Made by a program: the position numbers and the translations under genes. Of a stretch of 64,000 nt of DNA, positions 39,379 through 44,840 are shown in pieces. The stretch is from the sequence record PZ445451.1. One strand, 5' to 3'. This DNA is from a phage. Within the stretch, counting starts at the first letter, position 1, and each line of letters begins with the position of its first letter. The notes below the pieces were generated by a model, which had not been told where the DNA came from, did no database searches, and saw only the letters and a program-made list of their open reading frames with translations.

Positions 39379-39777
39379 TTACATTACTTTAACACAAAAC
39401 TCTCGTAAAAGAGTAGCGTCAGTTTCTTCCAACAGGTATTTACCAAGACCAATACCAAATCCTATTTCACCACTTTCAAAATGGAGGATTTGTATCTTTT
39501 CTCCACCAAGGTTAATTACTTTTGCTTTTCCAGGATTATCCAAAACATCTCGTATTGTATCCTGTAGTAACATAAGCTCACGTTTTGTGATAGTGGTTTC
39601 AGATATCTCTTTGTTTTCTACTCTCACTGTTAAACGATTGTATCCACCAAAGAGACATAGTATTTGAATAAAAAAGGTATTATCTTGAGGTTCAACATCT
39701 TTTTTAGTTAGTTCAAGACGATTAGTTTCTCTACTGTAGAACGTCTCGACTAAGATTTTAGAACGATTATCTGTCAT
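39379..39777 (-). CDS. Hypothetical protein
   Basis: 132 aa ORF on the replication-module strand. Confidence 0.4.
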   Translation of the reverse strand: MTDNRSKILVETFYSRETNRLELTKKDVEPQDNTFFIQILCLFGGYNRLTVRVENKEISETTITKRELMLLQDTIRDVLDNPGKAKVINLGGEKIQILHFESGEIGFGIGLGKYLLEETDATLLREFCVKVM

Positions 39778-39820
39778 TCAAGTCCTCATAATAACACATA
39801 ATTGTAAGGTTTGTCAACAC

Positions 39821-40435
39821 TTAAATCTTAAATTCTTCGTTGTTAAGTGAATCCAGTGTACGTACTTCTGGTTCTTTGGGGATGAAAACGTCTTTTACAA
39901 AGCGGAACATAGGGAAACGTTCTGCCATTTTACGGACGTGTGCTTCTTTACCTGTGTAGCGGTGATTAATAGTACAAATATTAGTTTTCAGCGCAAATTC
40001 AAAATCTGGATGATATACATAATTTTGACCATCCCAGTAACACAGGCAAATAGCTACGTCAAAGTTCCATACGATTTCACTGCGTACACCTTCTTCCATG
40101 ATCATAAAGTTAAACTTAAGATCTTTATAGTATGCTTCAAATACCCATTTCAAATGTGGTAGTTCGGCATAAGTGTGTTCTGTTTGCTTAGTAAGTTGTT
40201 TAACATTACGTGCACCAACACCCAACATCAAAAATTTCTCTACTAGTACGAGTGTATTGTGGTTAGGCATACGCAAGTAAATATCAATATCTTGCGCAGG
40301 TTTCTCTAATCGCCAATCACGTACAGCGCCGCCAGCTACAATTGCAAACGGATCTACCAGTTGGCACATACGTAATACTTCTAAAGCTCGTACTTTTTGA
40401 TCTTCAATATTCATATTTTCTCCTATCGTTTCCAC
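39821..40435 (-). CDS. Minimal nucleotidyltransferase related to the CCA-adding enzyme / poly(A) polymerase head domain
   Basis: 204 aa; motif FAIVAGGAVRDW...DIDIYL matches the pol-beta-type NTase signature of CCA-adding enzymes (GGaVRD...DhDh); far shorter than full-length CCA enzymes. Confidence 0.55.
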   Translation of the reverse strand: METIGENMNIEDQKVRALEVLRMCQLVDPFAIVAGGAVRDWRLEKPAQDIDIYLRMPNHNTLVLVEKFLMLGVGARNVKQLTKQTEHTYAELPHLKWVFEAYYKDLKFNFMIMEEGVRSEIVWNFDVAICLCYWDGQNYVYHPDFEFALKTNICTINHRYTGKEAHVRKMAERFPMFRFVKDVFIPKEPEVRTLDSLNNEEFKI

Positions 40436-41010
40436 TCTTTGTGTTGTTCTACATGCTCAAGCATTTCATTATATAGTGCTTTAAGATGTGGAACAACTCT
40501 TTCATCTTCAGTTTCAAAGAATTTTGTAAGCTGCTCTGCTTTAGCTTTCAACCAGCAAAGATGCGCTTCAATTTCAGTATTAAAACGTCCCAGCGTTTTT
40601 ATGCGACTGTCTACTTTTATATTGGCTTTGTATTTATTACGATCTTTTTCGTAACTACATCCCACCATAGTCCCATGAGATCTTTTACTTACTCTATAAG
40701 CTAAGAACTTATTAAGATCTCCTGTTACTAAAAGACAGGTATTGGGAGAGTAAACTCTCCCTCCTATAATATCTTTATCAAGTTCTAAGTTTTCCCAGTC
40801 ATCCCAAGTTTGCAACCAGGAATAGAAATTGGAGAACAACTTCCATTCTTCACAAACTGTCACCCCATTATAACAAGGATCACGTTCTTGTTGACAAGGG
40901 GAGTAACACCTCCCCAACATAGACATCCATTTCATATAAGCAGGGTGCATAGTTCCTCTAGGAGATCTTACAGTAAAATCTCCATCAAAAATACCATGAC
41001 CATATACCAT
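40423..41010 (-). CDS. Putative homing endonuclease with AP2-like DNA-binding domain
   Basis: 195 aa; AP2-like block (KYKANIKVDSRIKTLGRFNTEIEAHLCWLKAKAE); Cys/Trp-rich N-terminal region; free-standing gene directly downstream of the polymerase. Confidence 0.4.
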   Translation of the reverse strand: MVYGHGIFDGDFTVRSPRGTMHPAYMKWMSMLGRCYSPCQQERDPCYNGVTVCEEWKLFSNFYSWLQTWDDWENLELDKDIIGGRVYSPNTCLLVTGDLNKFLAYRVSKRSHGTMVGCSYEKDRNKYKANIKVDSRIKTLGRFNTEIEAHLCWLKAKAEQLTKFFETEDERVVPHLKALYNEMLEHVEQHKEWKR

Positions 41011-41039
41011 AAAAACTCCTTATAAAACAATATGTTAGA

Positions 41040-44000
41040 CTAATGACAACTGGCCCATGAGTTACCAACATCGTACCCAGCAGTGAGAGGTACATTAAGA
41101 TTGTAATACTCACCAGCTTTATTAACAGCGATAGATGCTAATTCTCCAGCACGACTGTAGGCTGTAAACCAACCACCTTTCGGAGATTCATGTACGTTCG
41201 CCCAAATCTTGCCAGTACGTTTCTCTTCCTCTTCTTTCCAGGCATTAACTTTATCCAAACATTCTTTATCAATTTTCTTTTGTTCTTCTGGATCATCAAC
41301 TTGAGTCCAACCTAAAGATTCTTTAGAGAACCATTTAAAATGCACCAGATCACGAGTTACTTCAAGTTGTGCTTCATCGTGATATGCAATCATTTGTTGA
41401 ACGAATGACTTATTTTTCCAGTCATCAACAAAAAAGTCAACAGCTAATCCTTCTTCTTCGATAAGATCGTCGTAGATAACCATTGCTCTTTTTGCACAAA
41501 TAACACCACCACTCTGGAACAGAGAGTTAAGTATTGCGTGTGCAGATCGTGTAGGTACTTTTCTACCATCAATACCGAGAATGTATTTCTTACCTGTTTT
41601 AACCCAAAAGTCATGCAGACGTTCTTTAAGAAGCGCAAGAGGTTTTGCAGCTTCCCAGAAAGCATCGTATACAAGCTGTCCTGTATACATATCACTACCT
41701 ATAGTTTTTGCTACTTTTGCAGCTTGAGCACCATAAGTAATACCATACTTAACAGATTTAGCAGGGCTTCGTTCAAACTTACGACCAATAGTGTCAGAAA
41801 TACGTCGAGCCATCATTGTATGAACATCATTAGGTTTTTCCAATAATAGAGCATTACAATATTCGTGTGGTTCCTGCTCGTACCGCCAACAATTCCCTGT
41901 AATCGTGATGCAGTCTTTCTGACGCATAACCCATGTACCGAGTTCTGTTTGTGGACACCAAACATCTTCTACACCCCATTCTTCAATAGTCAGACTTTGA
42001 ACAGGGATGTGAGAGCGGTTAGCCAACGTTGCCACTTTTACTTTCTGGTCTTTCGTATTGAAGGCTACAGAAATATTACCCCCATGAACCAGGTATGAGG
42101 CAGTTAAGGCTGCTTCAAAAAGTTCTCCTGGGTTCTGCGCCCAGCGCCAAACAGGTTTTTGTTTATGTTTGTGCCAGTAACCATCCGCAATCAAAAAACC
42201 TTCCAAGAAAGCCACACGCTCGGCATGAGACATATTAACTACACGTTCTACCCACGGAACATCCCATTTACCTTGTTGAACAGAAGTTAAACTATTTACT
42301 TGATCTTGTTCCATGTTAAATGGAGCATTACAAATAATGTTATCTCCTGTGCAAAGCTCGGCAGTTGTTCTGACTTTAGGCACATAAGTATTCCCTGTAC
42401 TACGAGTATTAACATACCAACGGTGATCTGCTGTTGCACGATAAGTATGGGATTTTCCTTTAATCTCAAACGTCTTACTATTTTTATAGAAGACCTTACC
42501 TTTTACTTTAGTCCATTCTTTAAGTCCTGTTTCTGGGTTATATCCTAAGATTTCATCCCCTTCTTGTAGATCGTGATAACCAACCCAACCTTTACGGGTT
42601 AGTGCTTGTGCATCCATAGGTACACAGTAGTGTGATTCTATTTTTGCCTCAAGAGAATCAAAGTCATAACCAATTTGGAAGTATTTTGGAACTTCTACAC
42701 CAAATAAGTTACGCATTTCATATCCGTACAGAGATGTTACACGTGGGATATTTGCTACTAACCTATGTTTCATACGAGATGTAGCTGCATCACACGTTGC
42801 AGCAGGAGTTGGTATACGACCATCAGCCCTTACTGCTGCCAGATAACCTTTATCGTAATCCTCTTCATCTTCTTCCCAATCAGCACCACCACCTAGAATA
42901 GAGTTCCTACGGTGTTTATACGTAAGATACTGCACAATCTGCGTAGCATAAGGAAACTTTTCACCCAGTGCTTCCAAGTTAGGACAAATATCTTTCTCTT
43001 GCCCTTTTGTAAAGGAAGGGTTCGTAAGCACTTTAACACCACGACCTTTAGCTTTAGCAATACGATCTCTTAGTTTCCATTCCAAAGTTTCTGGTGTGCA
43101 CTCCAGATGATCACATCTGTCCTGGCAGAAGTTAGATGCTAACGTTTGATCAACATAGTCACGAATAGCTTTCTCCATTTGTGCTTCATCTTTCTTAATC
43201 TTAGTGCCAGATTTAAGAGTGATATCTTTATCTTTGTATTCAGATGGACTCCAACCTAAACCAACTAACCAGTTTTTAATATGTGTAGTGTCGTCTAAAG
43301 TAGCAGGTACTGTAGGATCACAAATAGGTTCTTCTGCTGGAATAGGGAGTTTAAACTCTTTACCTAAAGCAAATAACCACCAACCATCTTCTTTTTGTAC
43401 AAGTTCACCAGAATGTTTCTCTGCAAACTTTATCATGTTACTTGAAGGTTCACCATTCTTTTTAAACTGTAGTTTAGGTGGAATGAATGATTTCAAATAA
43501 CCTTTGGTAGCAGGTTTAGGAGGTAGCACAGGTTCTGCCTCTAAACGACATGCTTCCATTCGAGCATCCAGATCACGAATATTATCTTCTGCTTGTTTCA
43601 TATTGAAAGCAAAGCCACGGTGCTCTTGACGTGTAATAATATCAGCTACACGTTGTTCTAAGTTAAATGGTTCAGACCACTTATTATAATCACCCCACTC
43701 TTCCATCAAATAACGGAACACTGCGGTGTTAGCTTTGTTATCGTAAATACAGTAATACAGCATATCTGCTGCAAATGTTTTAAATCTTTCAGTTTCAGGG
43801 ATGTTTTTTCTAAAATCAATTTTAACATCCCCTCCAGCTTTCTTAGATAACTCTGCCAGACTATGACCACCGAAGCGATCAGGGTTTAGTGTCTTACTTA
43901 AGATCATAGTATCACAAATTTCAATGTTACTATTACCCCAAGTATTGTACTTAATACTGTAGTTGAGTTTAAAAAATAATTTAATTGCCAGTAAGTCGAA

Positions 44001-44354
44001 GTTAATGATGTTGTGTCCAACTACTTTGGTAATTTTATAGTTTGAATTACCTTTAAATTTACCTGTTCCATTTACAAAATCAGGAAAATCTTTAAGAGGG
44101 AAATGGGTATATTCTAAATGCTCATATTCCTCCAATCGGTATTCATACTTTCCGTCAGTCTCAATATACGGACGACCATCGAAAAGATATTTATCACCAT
44201 CATGGAAAGCAATAATCTCTCCAGTATCATGACTTTCGCACACAATACAGTGCATTGCAAAACTATCTTTTAAACGATATGGACTTGCCAAGTAATCTAC
44301 ACTTTCGTCATTAAGCAAGTTGTTACTTTCAATGTCGAAAGTAAAAGCTCCCAT
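41040..44354 (-). CDS. DNA polymerase, family A (3'-5' exonuclease + polymerase), intein-containing
   Basis: Exo I FDIES and Exo II HNIINFD motifs; motif A DFDSLEAKIESHY interrupted right after HY; motif B-like KSVKYGITYG; motif C-like YHDE; strong AAGGAGGG RBS. Confidence 0.8.
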   Translation of the reverse strand: MGAFTFDIESNNLLNDESVDYLASPYRLKDSFAMHCIVCESHDTGEIIAFHDGDKYLFDGRPYIETDGKYEYRLEEYEHLEYTHFPLKDFPDFVNGTGKFKGNSNYKITKVVGHNIINFDLLAIKLFFKLNYSIKYNTWGNSNIEICDTMILSKTLNPDRFGGHSLAELSKKAGGDVKIDFRKNIPETERFKTFAADMLYYCIYDNKANTAVFRYLMEEWGDYNKWSEPFNLEQRVADIITRQEHRGFAFNMKQAEDNIRDLDARMEACRLEAEPVLPPKPATKGYLKSFIPPKLQFKKNGEPSSNMIKFAEKHSGELVQKEDGWWLFALGKEFKLPIPAEEPICDPTVPATLDDTTHIKNWLVGLGWSPSEYKDKDITLKSGTKIKKDEAQMEKAIRDYVDQTLASNFCQDRCDHLECTPETLEWKLRDRIAKAKGRGVKVLTNPSFTKGQEKDICPNLEALGEKFPYATQIVQYLTYKHRRNSILGGGADWEEDEEDYDKGYLAAVRADGRIPTPAATCDAATSRMKHRLVANIPRVTSLYGYEMRNLFGVEVPKYFQIGYDFDSLEAKIESHYCVPMDAQALTRKGWVGYHDLQEGDEILGYNPETGLKEWTKVKGKVFYKNSKTFEIKGKSHTYRATADHRWYVNTRSTGNTYVPKVRTTAELCTGDNIICNAPFNMEQDQVNSLTSVQQGKWDVPWVERVVNMSHAERVAFLEGFLIADGYWHKHKQKPVWRWAQNPGELFEAALTASYLVHGGNISVAFNTKDQKVKVATLANRSHIPVQSLTIEEWGVEDVWCPQTELGTWVMRQKDCITITGNCWRYEQEPHEYCNALLLEKPNDVHTMMARRISDTIGRKFERSPAKSVKYGITYGAQAAKVAKTIGSDMYTGQLVYDAFWEAAKPLALLKERLHDFWVKTGKKYILGIDGRKVPTRSAHAILNSLFQSGGVICAKRAMVIYDDLIEEEGLAVDFFVDDWKNKSFVQQMIAYHDEAQLEVTRDLVHFKWFSKESLGWTQVDDPEEQKKIDKECLDKVNAWKEEEEKRTGKIWANVHESPKGGWFTAYSRAGELASIAVNKAGEYYNLNVPLTAGYDVGNSWASCH
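41892..42626 (-). mobile_element. Intein (about 245 aa) with LAGLIDADG homing-endonuclease motif in the polymerase motif A region
   Basis: Starts with Cys after ...IESHY (CVPMDAQALTRKGW); block B TADHRWYV; LAGLIDADG-like VAFLEGFLIADGYW (about 42180-42209); ends ...ITITGN followed by Cys; extein resumes CWRYEQEPHEY...DVHT, aligning with family A sequence after motif A. Confidence 0.7.
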
Positions 44355-44445: not shown

Positions 44446-44840
44446 TATTTATTGTCAGCACTTAGTTGTACTTTAATAAGGCAATTAGGGACACCATTGG
44501 TATTTCTCAAGCCTACACGGTCAATTTTAACTGTTCCTGTTAAGCCACTAAAAGTGGAAACAATGTTATTAATGTTTTCATCCTTACTAGCGATATCAAG
44601 AACAACTTTATCACTAACATTTTTCAGCATACGATCTACAAGCTCTCCCACAAAACCACTGGTAGTTTGAATGAGAAGGTATAGGCAACCATCCTCAAAC
44701 CACAAATGTTCACCATAAGCATAACCGTATGGTTCTAATTCTAATCCGTCTTGAAATTTAAACTTAGCAATAGTTTTCGTATAATCATATGCTAAAGCAG
44801 AAGGGCATACCCCATAGAGGATGTTTTCGTTGTCTTTCAT
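44445..44840 (-). CDS. Hypothetical protein (start moved to internal ATG)
   Basis: Track ORF start 44969 lies inside the primase-helicase gene; the internal Met (MKDNENILYG...) sits about 11 nt downstream of the primase-helicase stop. Confidence 0.4.
   Translation of the reverse strand: MKDNENILYGVCPSALAYDYTKTIAKFKFQDGLELEPYGYAYGEHLWFEDGCLYLLIQTTSGFVGELVDRMLKNVSDKVVLDIASKDENINNIVSTFSGLTGTVKIDRVGLRNTNGVPNCLIKVQLSADNK

What the first reader, a model, noticed from the sequence alone, without database searches (positions are those of the whole stretch)
40423..41010. Free-standing AP2-domain homing-endonuclease-like gene immediately downstream of the intein-containing polymerase
An AP2-like DNA-binding block with a Cys/Trp-rich N-terminal domain sits directly after the polymerase gene, which itself carries a LAGLIDADG intein. 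The polymerase locus therefore appears to be a hotspot for selfish-element insertion.
Basis: partly seen in the sequence, partly recalled or inferred. Interest (0 to 1): 0.35.

Follow-up and report, generated by a model that had tools for sequence, protein, structure and literature searches.

The report
Homing-endonuclease-like AP2 gene beside phage polymerase
This is a small, dispensable, selfish-looking phage gene of an already described family (AP2-linked "IPA-HNH" homing-endonuclease genes) sitting just after the DNA polymerase gene; it is ordinary, except that the whole family lacks the catalytic histidine its "HNH" label implies and has never been shown to cut DNA.

Summary
The window is Escherichia phage PaulScherrer (Bas60, a phi92-like Justusliebigvirus). 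The ORF at 40423-41010 on the minus strand (195 aa, bas60_0043) is real. It starts 29 nt after the stop of the intein-containing DNA polymerase, and its own stop lies inside the ribosome-binding site of the next gene.

Residues about 113-165 form an AP2 domain, supported at family level. Residues 1-110 form the conserved domain that Barth, Dunham and Seed (2023) named IPA-HNH. The query is 34% identical to an ICP1 protein that also lies directly after a DNA polymerase.

The gene is not core. About half of Justusliebigvirus records carry one of two independent deletion relics. Most Phapecoctavirus records have an 18-nt hairpin at the site instead. Intact copies are under purifying selection (dN/dS 0.11-0.49). 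Sequence divergence peaks in and beside the gene. The intein and this gene occur in all four presence/absence combinations.

The main caveat is the catalytic site. No canonical HNH motif is present: a Lys, invariant in 208 of 208 relatives, occupies the position where the general-base His would fall in my alignment to I-HmuI. Similarity to solved HNH nucleases is not significant, and I found no published nuclease assay for the family.

Verdict: a new member of a known kind, of low to moderate interest.

The parts
40423..41010 (-). Free-standing ORF, 195 aa plus stop (bas60_0043), a member of the IPA-HNH/AP2 family
   Evidence: ORF list. GenBank annotation. phrog_953 at 7e-75. 34% identity to the ICP1 polymerase-adjacent homolog, E=2e-21. 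dN/dS 0.11-0.49.
41016..41021 (-). AAGGAG ribosome-binding site of the ORF, inside the 29-nt spacer after the polymerase stop
   Evidence: Read from the sequence. It is retained, together with the ATG, in the deletion relics of phi92, inny and outra.
40681..41010 (-). N-terminal conserved domain (residues 1-110), the 'IPA-HNH' domain. No Pfam model covers it.
   Evidence: Modelled alone at pLDDT 92.8. 66 BFVD viral proteins share the fold at E<=1e-3. No Pfam hit in any of 43 members.
40684..40788 (-). Predicted beta-beta-alpha core (residues 75-109): strands 76-78 and 93-95, helix 97-109
   Evidence: DSSP on the AlphaFold models. Short, non-significant Foldseek matches to the HNH enzymes PacI, Gme-HNH and TasH.
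40771..40779 (-). Codons for D78-K79-D80, the invariant 'LDKD' motif. K79 falls where the HNH general-base His would be in my alignment to I-HmuI.
   Evidence: D78 in 206/208, K79 in 208/208 and D80 in 208/208 relatives. A gapless register made by eye against I-HmuI places D78/K79 on D74/H75; the I-HmuI sequence was verified. hhalign did not reproduce this register with any support.
40750..40752 (-). Codon for Y87, an invariant Tyr in the loop between the two core strands
   Evidence: 207/208 relatives. In PacI, a Tyr in the equivalent loop replaces the catalytic His (PMC5714182; PMC4081073).
40711..40713 (-). Codon for N100, an invariant Asn in the core helix and the candidate metal ligand (position of I-HmuI N96 in the by-eye register)
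   Evidence: 208/208 relatives. It lies in helix 97-109.
40516..40674 (-). AP2-type DNA-binding domain (residues about 113-165): three strands plus a helix
   Evidence: Amino-acid differences between alleles cluster in strands 2-3, residues 125-138.
40444..40494 (-). C-terminal helix (residues 173-189). The last 60-90 nt of the ORF, which overlap this region, are what survives in the deletion relics.
40420..40425 (-). TAGGAG: the ORF's stop codon embedded in the ribosome-binding site of the downstream nucleotidyltransferase gene (ATG at 40414)
   Evidence: Read from the sequence. RefSeq relatives start the nucleotidyltransferase at this ATG. This junction is identical in genomes with and without the gene.
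41040..41070 (-). Last ~10 codons and stop of the DNA polymerase: a mosaic boundary with clustered silent changes (Ser AGT/AGC versus TCT/TCC; stop TAG versus TGA)
   Evidence: Alignments. Variable-site counts rise from 0-10 (mostly 0-6) per 100 nt in the flanks to 10-36 per 100 nt over most of this zone.
41040..44354 (-). Family-A DNA polymerase gene, the upstream neighbour
   Evidence: Pfam DNA_pol_A at 7.8e-11 and phrog_17 at 1.3e-106. GenBank annotation.
41889..42623 (-). Intein in the polymerase (245 aa), a second and independently assorting selfish element
   Evidence: Annotated in MZ501100.1. It is a 735-nt in-frame indel relative to alia, inny, outra and KKP_3264. Present in 34 of 78 records. 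LAGLIDADG_3 match is weak, E=0.084.

Best explanation
The ORF is a free-standing, selfish, homing-endonuclease-type gene of the IPA-HNH family.

Shown here: it encodes a two-domain protein, with a conserved N-terminal domain and a C-terminal AP2 DNA-binding domain. It sits in the intergenic slot between the polymerase stop and the ribosome-binding site of the nucleotidyltransferase gene. It is dispensable, repeatedly deleted and mosaic, yet under purifying selection where intact.

Inferred mechanism: during co-infection, the AP2 domain (possibly helped by the N-terminal hairpins) recognises a site in or near the 3' end of the polymerase gene, or the intergenic junction, of a phage that lacks the gene. 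The N-domain then nicks or cuts the DNA using one metal ion held by D78 and N100 on a beta-beta-alpha scaffold. Because no His is present, K79 or the loop tyrosine Y87 (as in PacI) would activate the nucleophile. Recombinational repair from the gene-carrying genome then copies the gene and adjacent markers into the recipient, producing the observed mosaic boundary in the last codons of the polymerase.

Loss by deletion, and exchange of alleles with different AP2 strands, complete the usual gain, decay and loss cycle of such genes.
For: Family membership:
- phrog_953 'HNH endonuclease' at 7e-75.
- 34% identity, E=2e-21, to the ICP1 protein encoded directly after the ICP1 DNA polymerase, which shares the LDKD...Y.P..C.LV...N motif.
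- Barth et al. define IPA-HNH genes by this architecture and report that 29% of them lie next to DNA polymerase genes (PMC10448857).
- The same primase, polymerase, homolog layout occurs in Rheinheimera phage Barba15S.

Mobility-type distribution:
- 1553 phage records and 2631 places in the phage collection, often 2-4 copies per genome.
- 37 of 65 records matching the locus carry the gene, including several Phapecoctavirus records at about 82% coverage; nearly all the rest carry relics.
- There are two independent deletions: the phi92/inny type and the outra type.
- About 10 Phapecoctavirus records carry it, and dozens more have an 18-nt hairpin at the same spot.
- All four intein/gene combinations exist.

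Boundary of genetic exchange: divergence peaks inside the ORF and in the last ~30 nt of the polymerase, while the flanks are 97-100% identical.

Function retained: dN/dS is 0.11-0.49.

Active-site-like conservation in a family with about 18-20% mean column identity: K79, D80 and N100 in 208/208; Y87, C92, R34 and Y47 in 207/208; D78 in 206/208.

Predicted beta-beta-alpha topology. A gapless by-eye register with I-HmuI D74/H75/N96. There is precedent for a His-less active HNH enzyme, PacI.
Against: - No member of the family has been shown to cut DNA or to home (Barth et al. rely on HHsearch and architecture).
- The catalytic His that defines His-Me nucleases is absent. Two of the three known His-less groups are inactive DNA or substrate binders.
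- My own tests for HNH relatedness were not significant. There was no Pfam HNH hit in any of 43 members. hhalign against an I-HmuI family profile gave probability about 1% or less. A HMMER profile search against PDB found only AP2 domains. Foldseek against PDB gave E=3-8 for the HNH enzymes.
- Every gene-less Justusliebigvirus examined carries a relic of the gene, so those states record loss rather than a never-invaded target.
- Between the two genera the gene is about as diverged (79-82% nt) as the neighbouring polymerase sequence. This fits old vertical inheritance with losses as well as it fits recent homing.
- The polymerase-end haplotypes track the gene's allele type rather than its presence or absence, so no target or immunity site could be identified.
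Confidence: 0.55

Rival explanations
1. A domesticated or non-catalytic DNA-binding protein. The N-domain would be a degenerate His-Me-like or unrelated fold that, together with AP2, binds a specific site and acts as a repressor, regulator or competitor-exclusion factor. Smad MH1, the satellite CapR and the phage CasPR proteins are all built from homing-endonuclease DNA-binding parts in this way. The patchy distribution would then reflect an accessory gene, not homing.
For: - The catalytic His is absent family-wide.
- His-less and Tyr-less His-Me domains such as Smad MH1 and Enpp are inactive binders.
- AP2 and CapR modules derived from homing endonucleases do act as transcriptional silencers (discussion).
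- No significant similarity to any solved nuclease.
- The gene is as diverged between genera as its flanks.
Against: - Strict invariance of an acidic/basic/Asn/Tyr constellation (D78, K79, D80, Y87, N100) across 208 relatives at about 18-20% overall column identity looks like a catalytic centre rather than a binding surface. By contrast, the catalytic region of Smad MH1 is described as completely devolved.
- Multi-copy, patchy spread next to essential genes in 1553 phage genomes, and placement at recombination boundaries, are typical of homing-endonuclease genes.
- The family retains a Tyr in the loop, which is the feature that keeps PacI active.
Confidence: 0.27
2. An active nuclease whose role is not self-propagation. 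It would act as a weapon or processing enzyme, for example cutting the DNA of competing phages or satellites, or the host chromosome. The polymerase-adjacent position would then reflect co-expression with the replication module.
For: - Barth et al. stress that nucleases related to homing endonucleases are repeatedly co-opted in conflicts between phages and satellites, and that bioinformatics alone cannot tell whether a given gene homes.
- The gene sits inside an early, replication-type gene block on the same strand.
Against: - Roughly half of close relatives have lost it without any visible compensation.
- Allelic mosaicism is confined to the gene and its immediate flanks. This is what local gene conversion produces.
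- The repeated position directly after family-A polymerase genes in three unrelated phage groups suggests the site itself is targeted.
Confidence: 0.13
3. A core replication accessory protein of phi92-like phages, for example a polymerase cofactor, conserved in synteny.
For: Constant position between the polymerase and the nucleotidyltransferase in both Justusliebigvirus and Phapecoctavirus, and purifying selection.
Against: It is absent or deleted in about 28 of 65 records matching the locus and in most Phapecoctavirus records. These include well-studied viable phages such as phi92 and phAPEC8.
Confidence: 0.03

Closest known systems
IPA-HNH homing-endonuclease genes of Vibrio phage ICP1 (gp59, gp115-116, gp209; Barth, Dunham & Seed 2023, PMC10448857)
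   Same: Same two-domain architecture: a divergent 'HNH-like' N-domain followed by AP2. 34% identity, E=2e-21, to the ICP1 protein encoded directly after the ICP1 DNA polymerase. That protein is probably gp59, inferred from its position, since the numbering could not be checked in the text. Same LDKD...Y.P..C...N motif, same placement after a family-A polymerase, and the same patchy distribution.
   Different: The PaulScherrer protein is the minimal version (195 aa). It lacks the ~80-aa N-terminal extension that ICP1 and many other members carry. phi92-like phages were not found in the supplementary tables of that study that I could search. Activity is untested in both.
I-HmuI (PDB 1U3E) and other HNH_3 homing endonucleases, including the HNH_3+AP2 group (group 2 of Jablonska et al. 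2017, PMC5714182)
   Same: A nuclease-type N-terminal part followed by a modular DNA-binding domain, with AP2 listed as one such module. Predicted beta-beta-alpha core. A gapless by-eye register puts D78 and N100 on the I-HmuI metal ligands D74 and N96; the ligand roles are from my own knowledge of Shen et al. 2004, and the sequence was verified.
   Different: K79 replaces the general-base H75 in every relative. No Pfam HNH_3 hit. hhalign probability to an I-HmuI family profile is about 1% or less, and hhalign did not recover the by-eye register with support.
Restriction endonuclease PacI (PDB 3LDY/3M7K)
   Same: A His-Me enzyme that lacks the catalytic His and uses a Tyr in the loop between the core strands, with the metal held by one Asp and one Asn. 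The phage family has an invariant loop Tyr (Y87), Asp (D78) and Asn (N100). PacI is the top PDB fold match of the N-domain.
   Different: The match covers only 29 columns at E=3.0, which is not significant. PacI has two Cys4 zinc sites and is a homodimeric restriction enzyme, whereas this family has no Cys4 pattern. Residue-level equivalence of the two tyrosines could not be checked.
Free-standing seg and mob homing-endonuclease genes of phage T4
   Same: Small intergenic genes next to conserved essential genes. They are variably present among close relatives and are associated with localized marker conversion (general knowledge; summarised).
   Different: T4 genes use GIY-YIG or canonical HNH_3 catalytic domains with zinc-finger or helix-turn-helix DNA-binding parts. 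T4 has no IPA-HNH genes.
Domesticated relatives of homing-endonuclease DNA-binding modules: plant AP2/ERF factors, satellite CapR, phage CasPR anti-CRISPR repressors
   Same: They use AP2 (and CapR) domains for sequence-specific DNA binding. The AP2 profile of this family hits plant WRI1 and ERF structures.
   Different: Those proteins have no nuclease-like domain. This protein keeps a strictly conserved N-domain with an active-site-like residue set.

Membership tests
IPA-HNH homing-endonuclease genes (Barth et al. 2023) | N-terminal domain homologous to that of ICP1 gp59, gp115 and gp209 | tested here: met
   tblastn hits to ICP1 genomes. BLASTP 34% identity over 156 aa, E=2e-21, to the ICP1 polymerase-adjacent ORF, with a shared LDKD...Y.P..C...N motif. 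That this ORF is gp59 is inferred from position, not read from the paper.
IPA-HNH homing-endonuclease genes (Barth et al. 2023) | C-terminal AP2 DNA-binding domain | tested here: met
   16 of 43 homologs hit PF00847. The family profile hits WRI1, ERF096 and AtERF1 structures at 1.9e-7 to 4.9e-4. Predicted three-strand-plus-helix fold, with AP2 domains as the top (non-significant) fold matches. The query alone gives no Pfam hit.
IPA-HNH homing-endonuclease genes (Barth et al. 2023) | Free-standing gene near an essential gene, variably present among relatives | tested here: met
   29 nt after the polymerase stop. Present in 37 of 65 records matching the locus, with relics or an empty site in others.
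IPA-HNH homing-endonuclease genes (Barth et al. 2023) | Actual endonuclease and homing activity | not testable with these tools
   No experimental report found for any member.
HNH / His-Me finger nucleases | Catalytic His at the C-terminal end of the first core strand | tested here: not met
   In the by-eye register with I-HmuI, the position is Lys in 208 of 208 relatives, and no conserved His exists anywhere in the domain.
HNH / His-Me finger nucleases | Beta-hairpin plus helix core, with a metal-binding Asn or His in the helix | tested here: inconclusive
   The predicted strands 76-78 and 93-95 and helix 97-109, with invariant N100 in the helix and invariant D78, fit the pattern.
HNH / His-Me finger nucleases | Significant sequence or structure similarity to established members | tested here: not met
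   No Pfam HNH family in 43 members. hhalign against the I-HmuI family gave probability 0.3-1.1%. The profile search against PDB found no HNH chain at E<=10. Foldseek gave PacI E=3.0 and Gme-HNH E=4.5. Barth et al. report HHsearch hits to HNH, but I could not reproduce this with the profiles available here.
AP2/ERF DNA-binding domain (PF00847) | Profile match and a three-stranded antiparallel sheet packed on a helix | tested here: met
   The query itself falls below Pfam detection.
Intein with LAGLIDADG endonuclease (neighbouring element in the polymerase) | In-frame insertion absent from relatives, Cys at position 1 and at +1, and LAGLIDADG motifs | tested here: inconclusive
   A 735-nt in-frame indel, annotated as an intein. 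It begins with Cys, ends Gly-Asn, and the next residue is Cys (translation). Only one LAGLIDADG-like stretch was found, Pfam LAGLIDADG_3 E=0.084, below cut-off, with no PHROG hit. Splicing-domain models were not matched.

The most novel reading that the evidence does not exclude
The 'IPA-HNH' domain may be a distinct catalytic variant of the His-Me finger. In this reading, the general-base His is permanently replaced (K79, with the invariant loop Tyr87 acting as in PacI), while the Asp and Asn metal ligands are kept.

This would make the domain a large and biochemically unexplored class of homing endonuclease: 7,188 50%-identity clusters at E<=1e-30 and no Pfam model.

The alternative is that the domain is not a nuclease at all. 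In that case thousands of 'HNH endonuclease' annotations are wrong, and the patchy, site-specific spread of these genes needs another explanation.
Probability: 0.4. Interest if true: 0.5.

Novelty: new member of a known kind. Interest (0 to 1): 0.28.

Why it matters
For this genome, the result turns a 'hypothetical protein' into a defined selfish element. It also documents a compact locus where two independent selfish elements, an intein and a free-standing gene about 880 bp apart, come and go within one phage subfamily. That makes the locus a convenient natural system for measuring homing and loss.

More generally, the analysis shows that the very large phage family routinely labelled 'HNH endonuclease' has no histidine at the catalytic position and carries an invariant D-K-D / Y / N set instead. 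A simple cleavage assay on this 195-aa minimal member, using phi92 or phAPEC8 DNA as the natural gene-less substrate, would settle two questions: whether the family is catalytically active, and which residue does the chemistry.

Tried and rejected
- Pfam and NCBIfam scans of the query found no AP2, HNH or any other hit. AP2 appeared only at family level.
- phmmer of the query against PDB returned chance matches only.
- Foldseek of the full model found AP2 domains only, with weak E-values. Foldseek of the N-domain alone placed HNH enzymes among the top hits, but at E=3-8, which is not usable as evidence. Foldseek against BFVD returned only members of the same family.
- hhalign of the family against I-HmuI as a single sequence, against a 120-sequence I-HmuI family profile, and again with a 208-sequence query profile and trimmed cores was negative each time. 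hhalign did not reproduce the expected register with any support.
- A viral-contig scan for I-HmuI relatives gave only 2 loci and was not useful.
- I looked for a target or immunity polymorphism separating genomes with and without the gene at the polymerase 3' end. The haplotypes follow the gene's allele type, not its presence, so no target site can be named.
- The promoter and terminator scan of 39700-41400 gave counts no higher than shuffled controls.
- I considered a zinc finger for the Cys-rich N-domain. It was rejected because only C92 is near-invariant and there is no Cys4 pattern.
- I considered PD-(D/E)xK because of 'ELDKD'. It was rejected because the spacing does not fit (D/E)-x-K and the predicted fold is a hairpin plus helix.
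- I considered the neighbouring ORF at 44448-44840, noted as 'potential endonuclease/hydrolase' in phi92, as a third selfish element. There is no Pfam hit and only an unknown-function PHROG, so there is no support.
- The primary PacI paper could not be retrieved. PacI facts are taken from two reviews.
Full report
**Identity of the window and the ORF.** A 6-kb query around the finding is 100% identical to Escherichia phage PaulScherrer (Bas60, MZ501100.1; Stephanstirmvirinae, Justusliebigvirus, phi92-like). The ORF list shows a 195-aa ORF at 40423..41010 on the minus strand. This ORF is bas60_0043, 'hypothetical protein'. RefSeq relatives call the ortholog 'HNH endonuclease'. The polymerase ORF ends at 41040. 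A 29-nt spacer carrying AAGGAG precedes the ATG at 41010. The TAG stop (40423-40425) lies inside the TAGGAG ribosome-binding site of the nucleotidyltransferase gene, whose ATG is at 40414. The gene therefore fills the intergenic slot exactly.

**Domain content.** The query alone hits nothing in Pfam or NCBIfam. In PHROGs it matches phrog_953 'HNH endonuclease' at 7e-75. Other 'HNH endonuclease' PHROGs cover either residues about 20-110 or about 105-177.

An AlphaFold2 model built on 43 homologs is confident (pLDDT 94). It shows short N-terminal hairpins, helices 23-66, strand 76-78, strand 93-95 and helix 97-103. These are followed by a three-stranded sheet (118-143), a helix (146-165) and a final helix (173-189).

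The second half is an AP2 domain:
- 16 of 43 homologs hit PF00847, best 6.8e-8.
- A 149-sequence profile hits solved AP2/ERF domains: WRI1 at 1.9e-7, ERF096 at 2.7e-4, AtERF1 at 4.9e-4.
- The best PDB fold matches of the model are AP2 domains (TEM1, PF14_0633, WRI1), although those Foldseek E-values (0.19-1.2) are not significant by themselves.

**The family is already described.** Barth, Dunham and Seed (2023, PMC10448857) named 'IPA-HNH' homing-endonuclease genes in Vibrio phage ICP1 (gp59, gp115-116, gp209). They describe an N-terminal domain too divergent for the Pfam HNH_3 model but seen by HHsearch, followed by AP2. They report that 29% of such genes lie next to DNA polymerase genes, and that they are enriched in Barbaviruses and Flaumdraviruses.

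My tblastn search found the family in 1553 phage records (2631 places), including ICP1 and the Rheinheimera Barba phages. The ICP1 hit is the ORF directly downstream of the ICP1 DNA polymerase. It is 34% identical to the query (E=2e-21) and has the same LDKD...Y.P..C.LV...N motif. In Barba15S a homolog also follows the DNA polymerase by 45 nt. phi92-like phages were not found in that paper's supplementary tables. An exhaustive profile search gives 7,188 50%-identity clusters at E<=1e-30.

**Is there a nuclease motif?** In 208 diverse relatives:
- K79, D80, N100 and F62 are invariant.
- Y87, C92, R34 and Y47 are present in 207 of 208.
- D78 is present in 206 of 208.
- No His is conserved.

The predicted strand, loop, strand, helix arrangement (76-78, 93-95, 97-109) has the topology of a His-Me finger. 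The I-HmuI sequence was verified against 1U3E. A gapless register made by eye against it puts D78 on D74, K79 on the general-base H75, and N100 on N96. The catalytic roles of those I-HmuI residues are from my own knowledge of the 1U3E paper.

The direct tests were all negative or non-significant:
- No HNH Pfam family in any of 43 members.
- hhalign against a 120-sequence I-HmuI family profile gave probability 0.3-1.1%, even with the deeper query alignment, and did not recover the by-eye register with support.
- Profile searches against PDB found no HNH chain.
- Foldseek of the N-domain placed PacI (E=3.0), Gme-HNH (E=4.5 and 8.0) and TasH (E=8.0) among the top nine hits, which is not significant.

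Jablonska et al. (PMC5714182) state that the catalytic His is nearly invariant. Only three groups lack it: PacI, where a Tyr in the loop substitutes, and Smad MH1 and Enpp, which are inactive (PacI chemistry also). The phage family has an invariant Tyr (Y87) in the corresponding loop. I therefore treat 'HNH' as a working analogy, not a demonstrated membership. The defining His is tested and not met.

**Comparative genomics.** Seven Justusliebigvirus loci and two Phapecoctavirus loci were aligned.

Presence and absence:
- PaulScherrer, ESCO32 and KKP_3264 carry one allele type, and alia carries a second. The second type differs mainly in residues 1-25 and in AP2 strands 2-3 (residues 125-138).
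- phi92 and inny keep only the ribosome-binding site, the ATG and a diverged stretch of about 90 nt from the 3' end.
- outra keeps the first ~80 nt and the last ~66 nt of an alia-type copy. This is a second, independent deletion.
- Of 65 records matching the locus, 37 hold the gene and about 28 hold relics.
- In Phapecoctavirus, about 10 records hold the gene (nieznany and others). Most, such as phAPEC8, have an 18-nt GC hairpin (GGGGCTTCTGCCCC) between the same conserved flanks. This is a clean empty site.

Divergence: variable sites number 0-10 (mostly 0-6) per 100 nt in the flanks but 10-36 per 100 nt across most of the ORF and in the last ~100 nt of the polymerase. The changes at the end of the polymerase include silent Ser AGY/TCN swaps and TAG/TGA stop changes. 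This fits imported rather than locally mutated sequence.

Selection: dN/dS among intact copies is 0.11-0.49.

Independent assortment: the intein is present in 34 of 78 records. All four intein/gene combinations occur:
- PaulScherrer and ESCO32 have both.
- phi92 has the intein only.
- alia and KKP_3264 have the gene only.
- inny and outra have neither.
The same four combinations occur in Phapecoctavirus.

**Limits of the homing inference.** All gene-less Justusliebigvirus examined carry relics, so they record loss, not naive targets. Between the two genera the gene is 79-82% identical, like the adjacent polymerase sequence. Old vertical descent with repeated loss is therefore as compatible with the data as recent homing. 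The polymerase-end haplotypes follow the allele type rather than presence or absence, so I could not name a target site. No activity data exist for the family. No promoter or terminator signal exceeds chance.

**Conclusion.** The most likely reading (about 0.55) is a free-standing homing-endonuclease-type selfish gene of the IPA-HNH family. It would use AP2 for recognition and an atypical, His-less beta-beta-alpha centre (D78/N100 metal site, with K79 or Y87 as activator) for cleavage.

The main rival (about 0.27) is a non-catalytic DNA-binding derivative. A non-homing nuclease role (about 0.13) and a core replication role (about 0.03, effectively refuted) follow.

The gene is a new member of a known kind, and its interest is low to moderate. 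The one point that goes beyond the literature I could read is the family-wide Lys-for-His replacement with an invariant loop Tyr. This 195-aa minimal member, with natural gene-less substrates at hand, would be a convenient protein on which to test that point.

Noticed in passing
window 41889-42623 (-): The polymerase intein is 89-90% identical (nt) between Justusliebigvirus and Phapecoctavirus copies, whereas the adjacent polymerase 3' end and the AP2 gene are 78-82% identical. The intein seems to have moved between the genera more recently than the backbones diverged. It is only 245 aa, ends Gly-Asn rather than His-Asn, and shows a single weak LAGLIDADG-like stretch (Pfam E=0.084).
   Followed up: partly
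L012 (phAPEC8) about 905-950; corresponds to window about 40426-41020: In gene-less Phapecoctavirus the slot holds an 18-nt GC-rich hairpin (GGGGCTTCTGCCCC followed by TTTAT), a possible terminator after the polymerase. It is absent when the gene is present.
   Followed up: partly
L007 (phage outra) 2200-2322: The annotated 40-aa 'hypothetical protein' outra_77 fuses the first ~27 and last ~13 codons of an alia-type copy of the gene. This looks like a recent internal deletion, independent of the older phi92/inny relic.
   Followed up: yes
window 40414-40435: The GenBank record starts the nucleotidyltransferase gene (bas60_0042) at GTG 40435, overlapping the AP2 gene. RefSeq relatives start it at ATG 40414, which has a TAGGAG ribosome-binding site that contains the AP2 gene's stop codon. 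The ATG start looks more plausible.
   Followed up: partly
window 40597-40638 (residues 125-138 of the ORF): Amino-acid differences between alleles (PaulScherrer, ESCO32, KKP_3264, alia, nieznany) concentrate in strands 2-3 of the AP2 sheet, the part that contacts DNA in plant AP2/ERF domains. This hints at diverging target specificity.
   Followed up: no
phage records MG065639, MG065645, MG065689 (hits H83-H85): Three records labelled 'Campylobacter phage' (A150, A145, A110a; host C. jejuni) are about 92% identical to E. coli Justusliebigvirus across this locus. The host label looks doubtful.
   Followed up: no
L004 (ICP1) 2339-3157; L013 (Barba15S) 3465-4118: Homologs of the gene sit directly after a DNA polymerase gene in three unrelated phage groups (E. 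coli Stephanstirmvirinae, Vibrio ICP1, Rheinheimera Barbavirus). In Barba15S and in the window a primase gene also lies upstream of the polymerase. Some Barba records annotate the homolog itself as 'tRNA nucleotidyltransferase', probably a mislabel.
   Followed up: partly
It has no Pfam hit and only an unknown-function PHROG, so that label is unsupported here.
   Followed up: partly
family level: Many relatives are 250-570 aa and carry N-terminal extensions of about 40 to over 200 aa, one with a DUF723 hit, or tandem duplications of the whole unit. The PaulScherrer protein is the minimal two-domain form.
   Followed up: no
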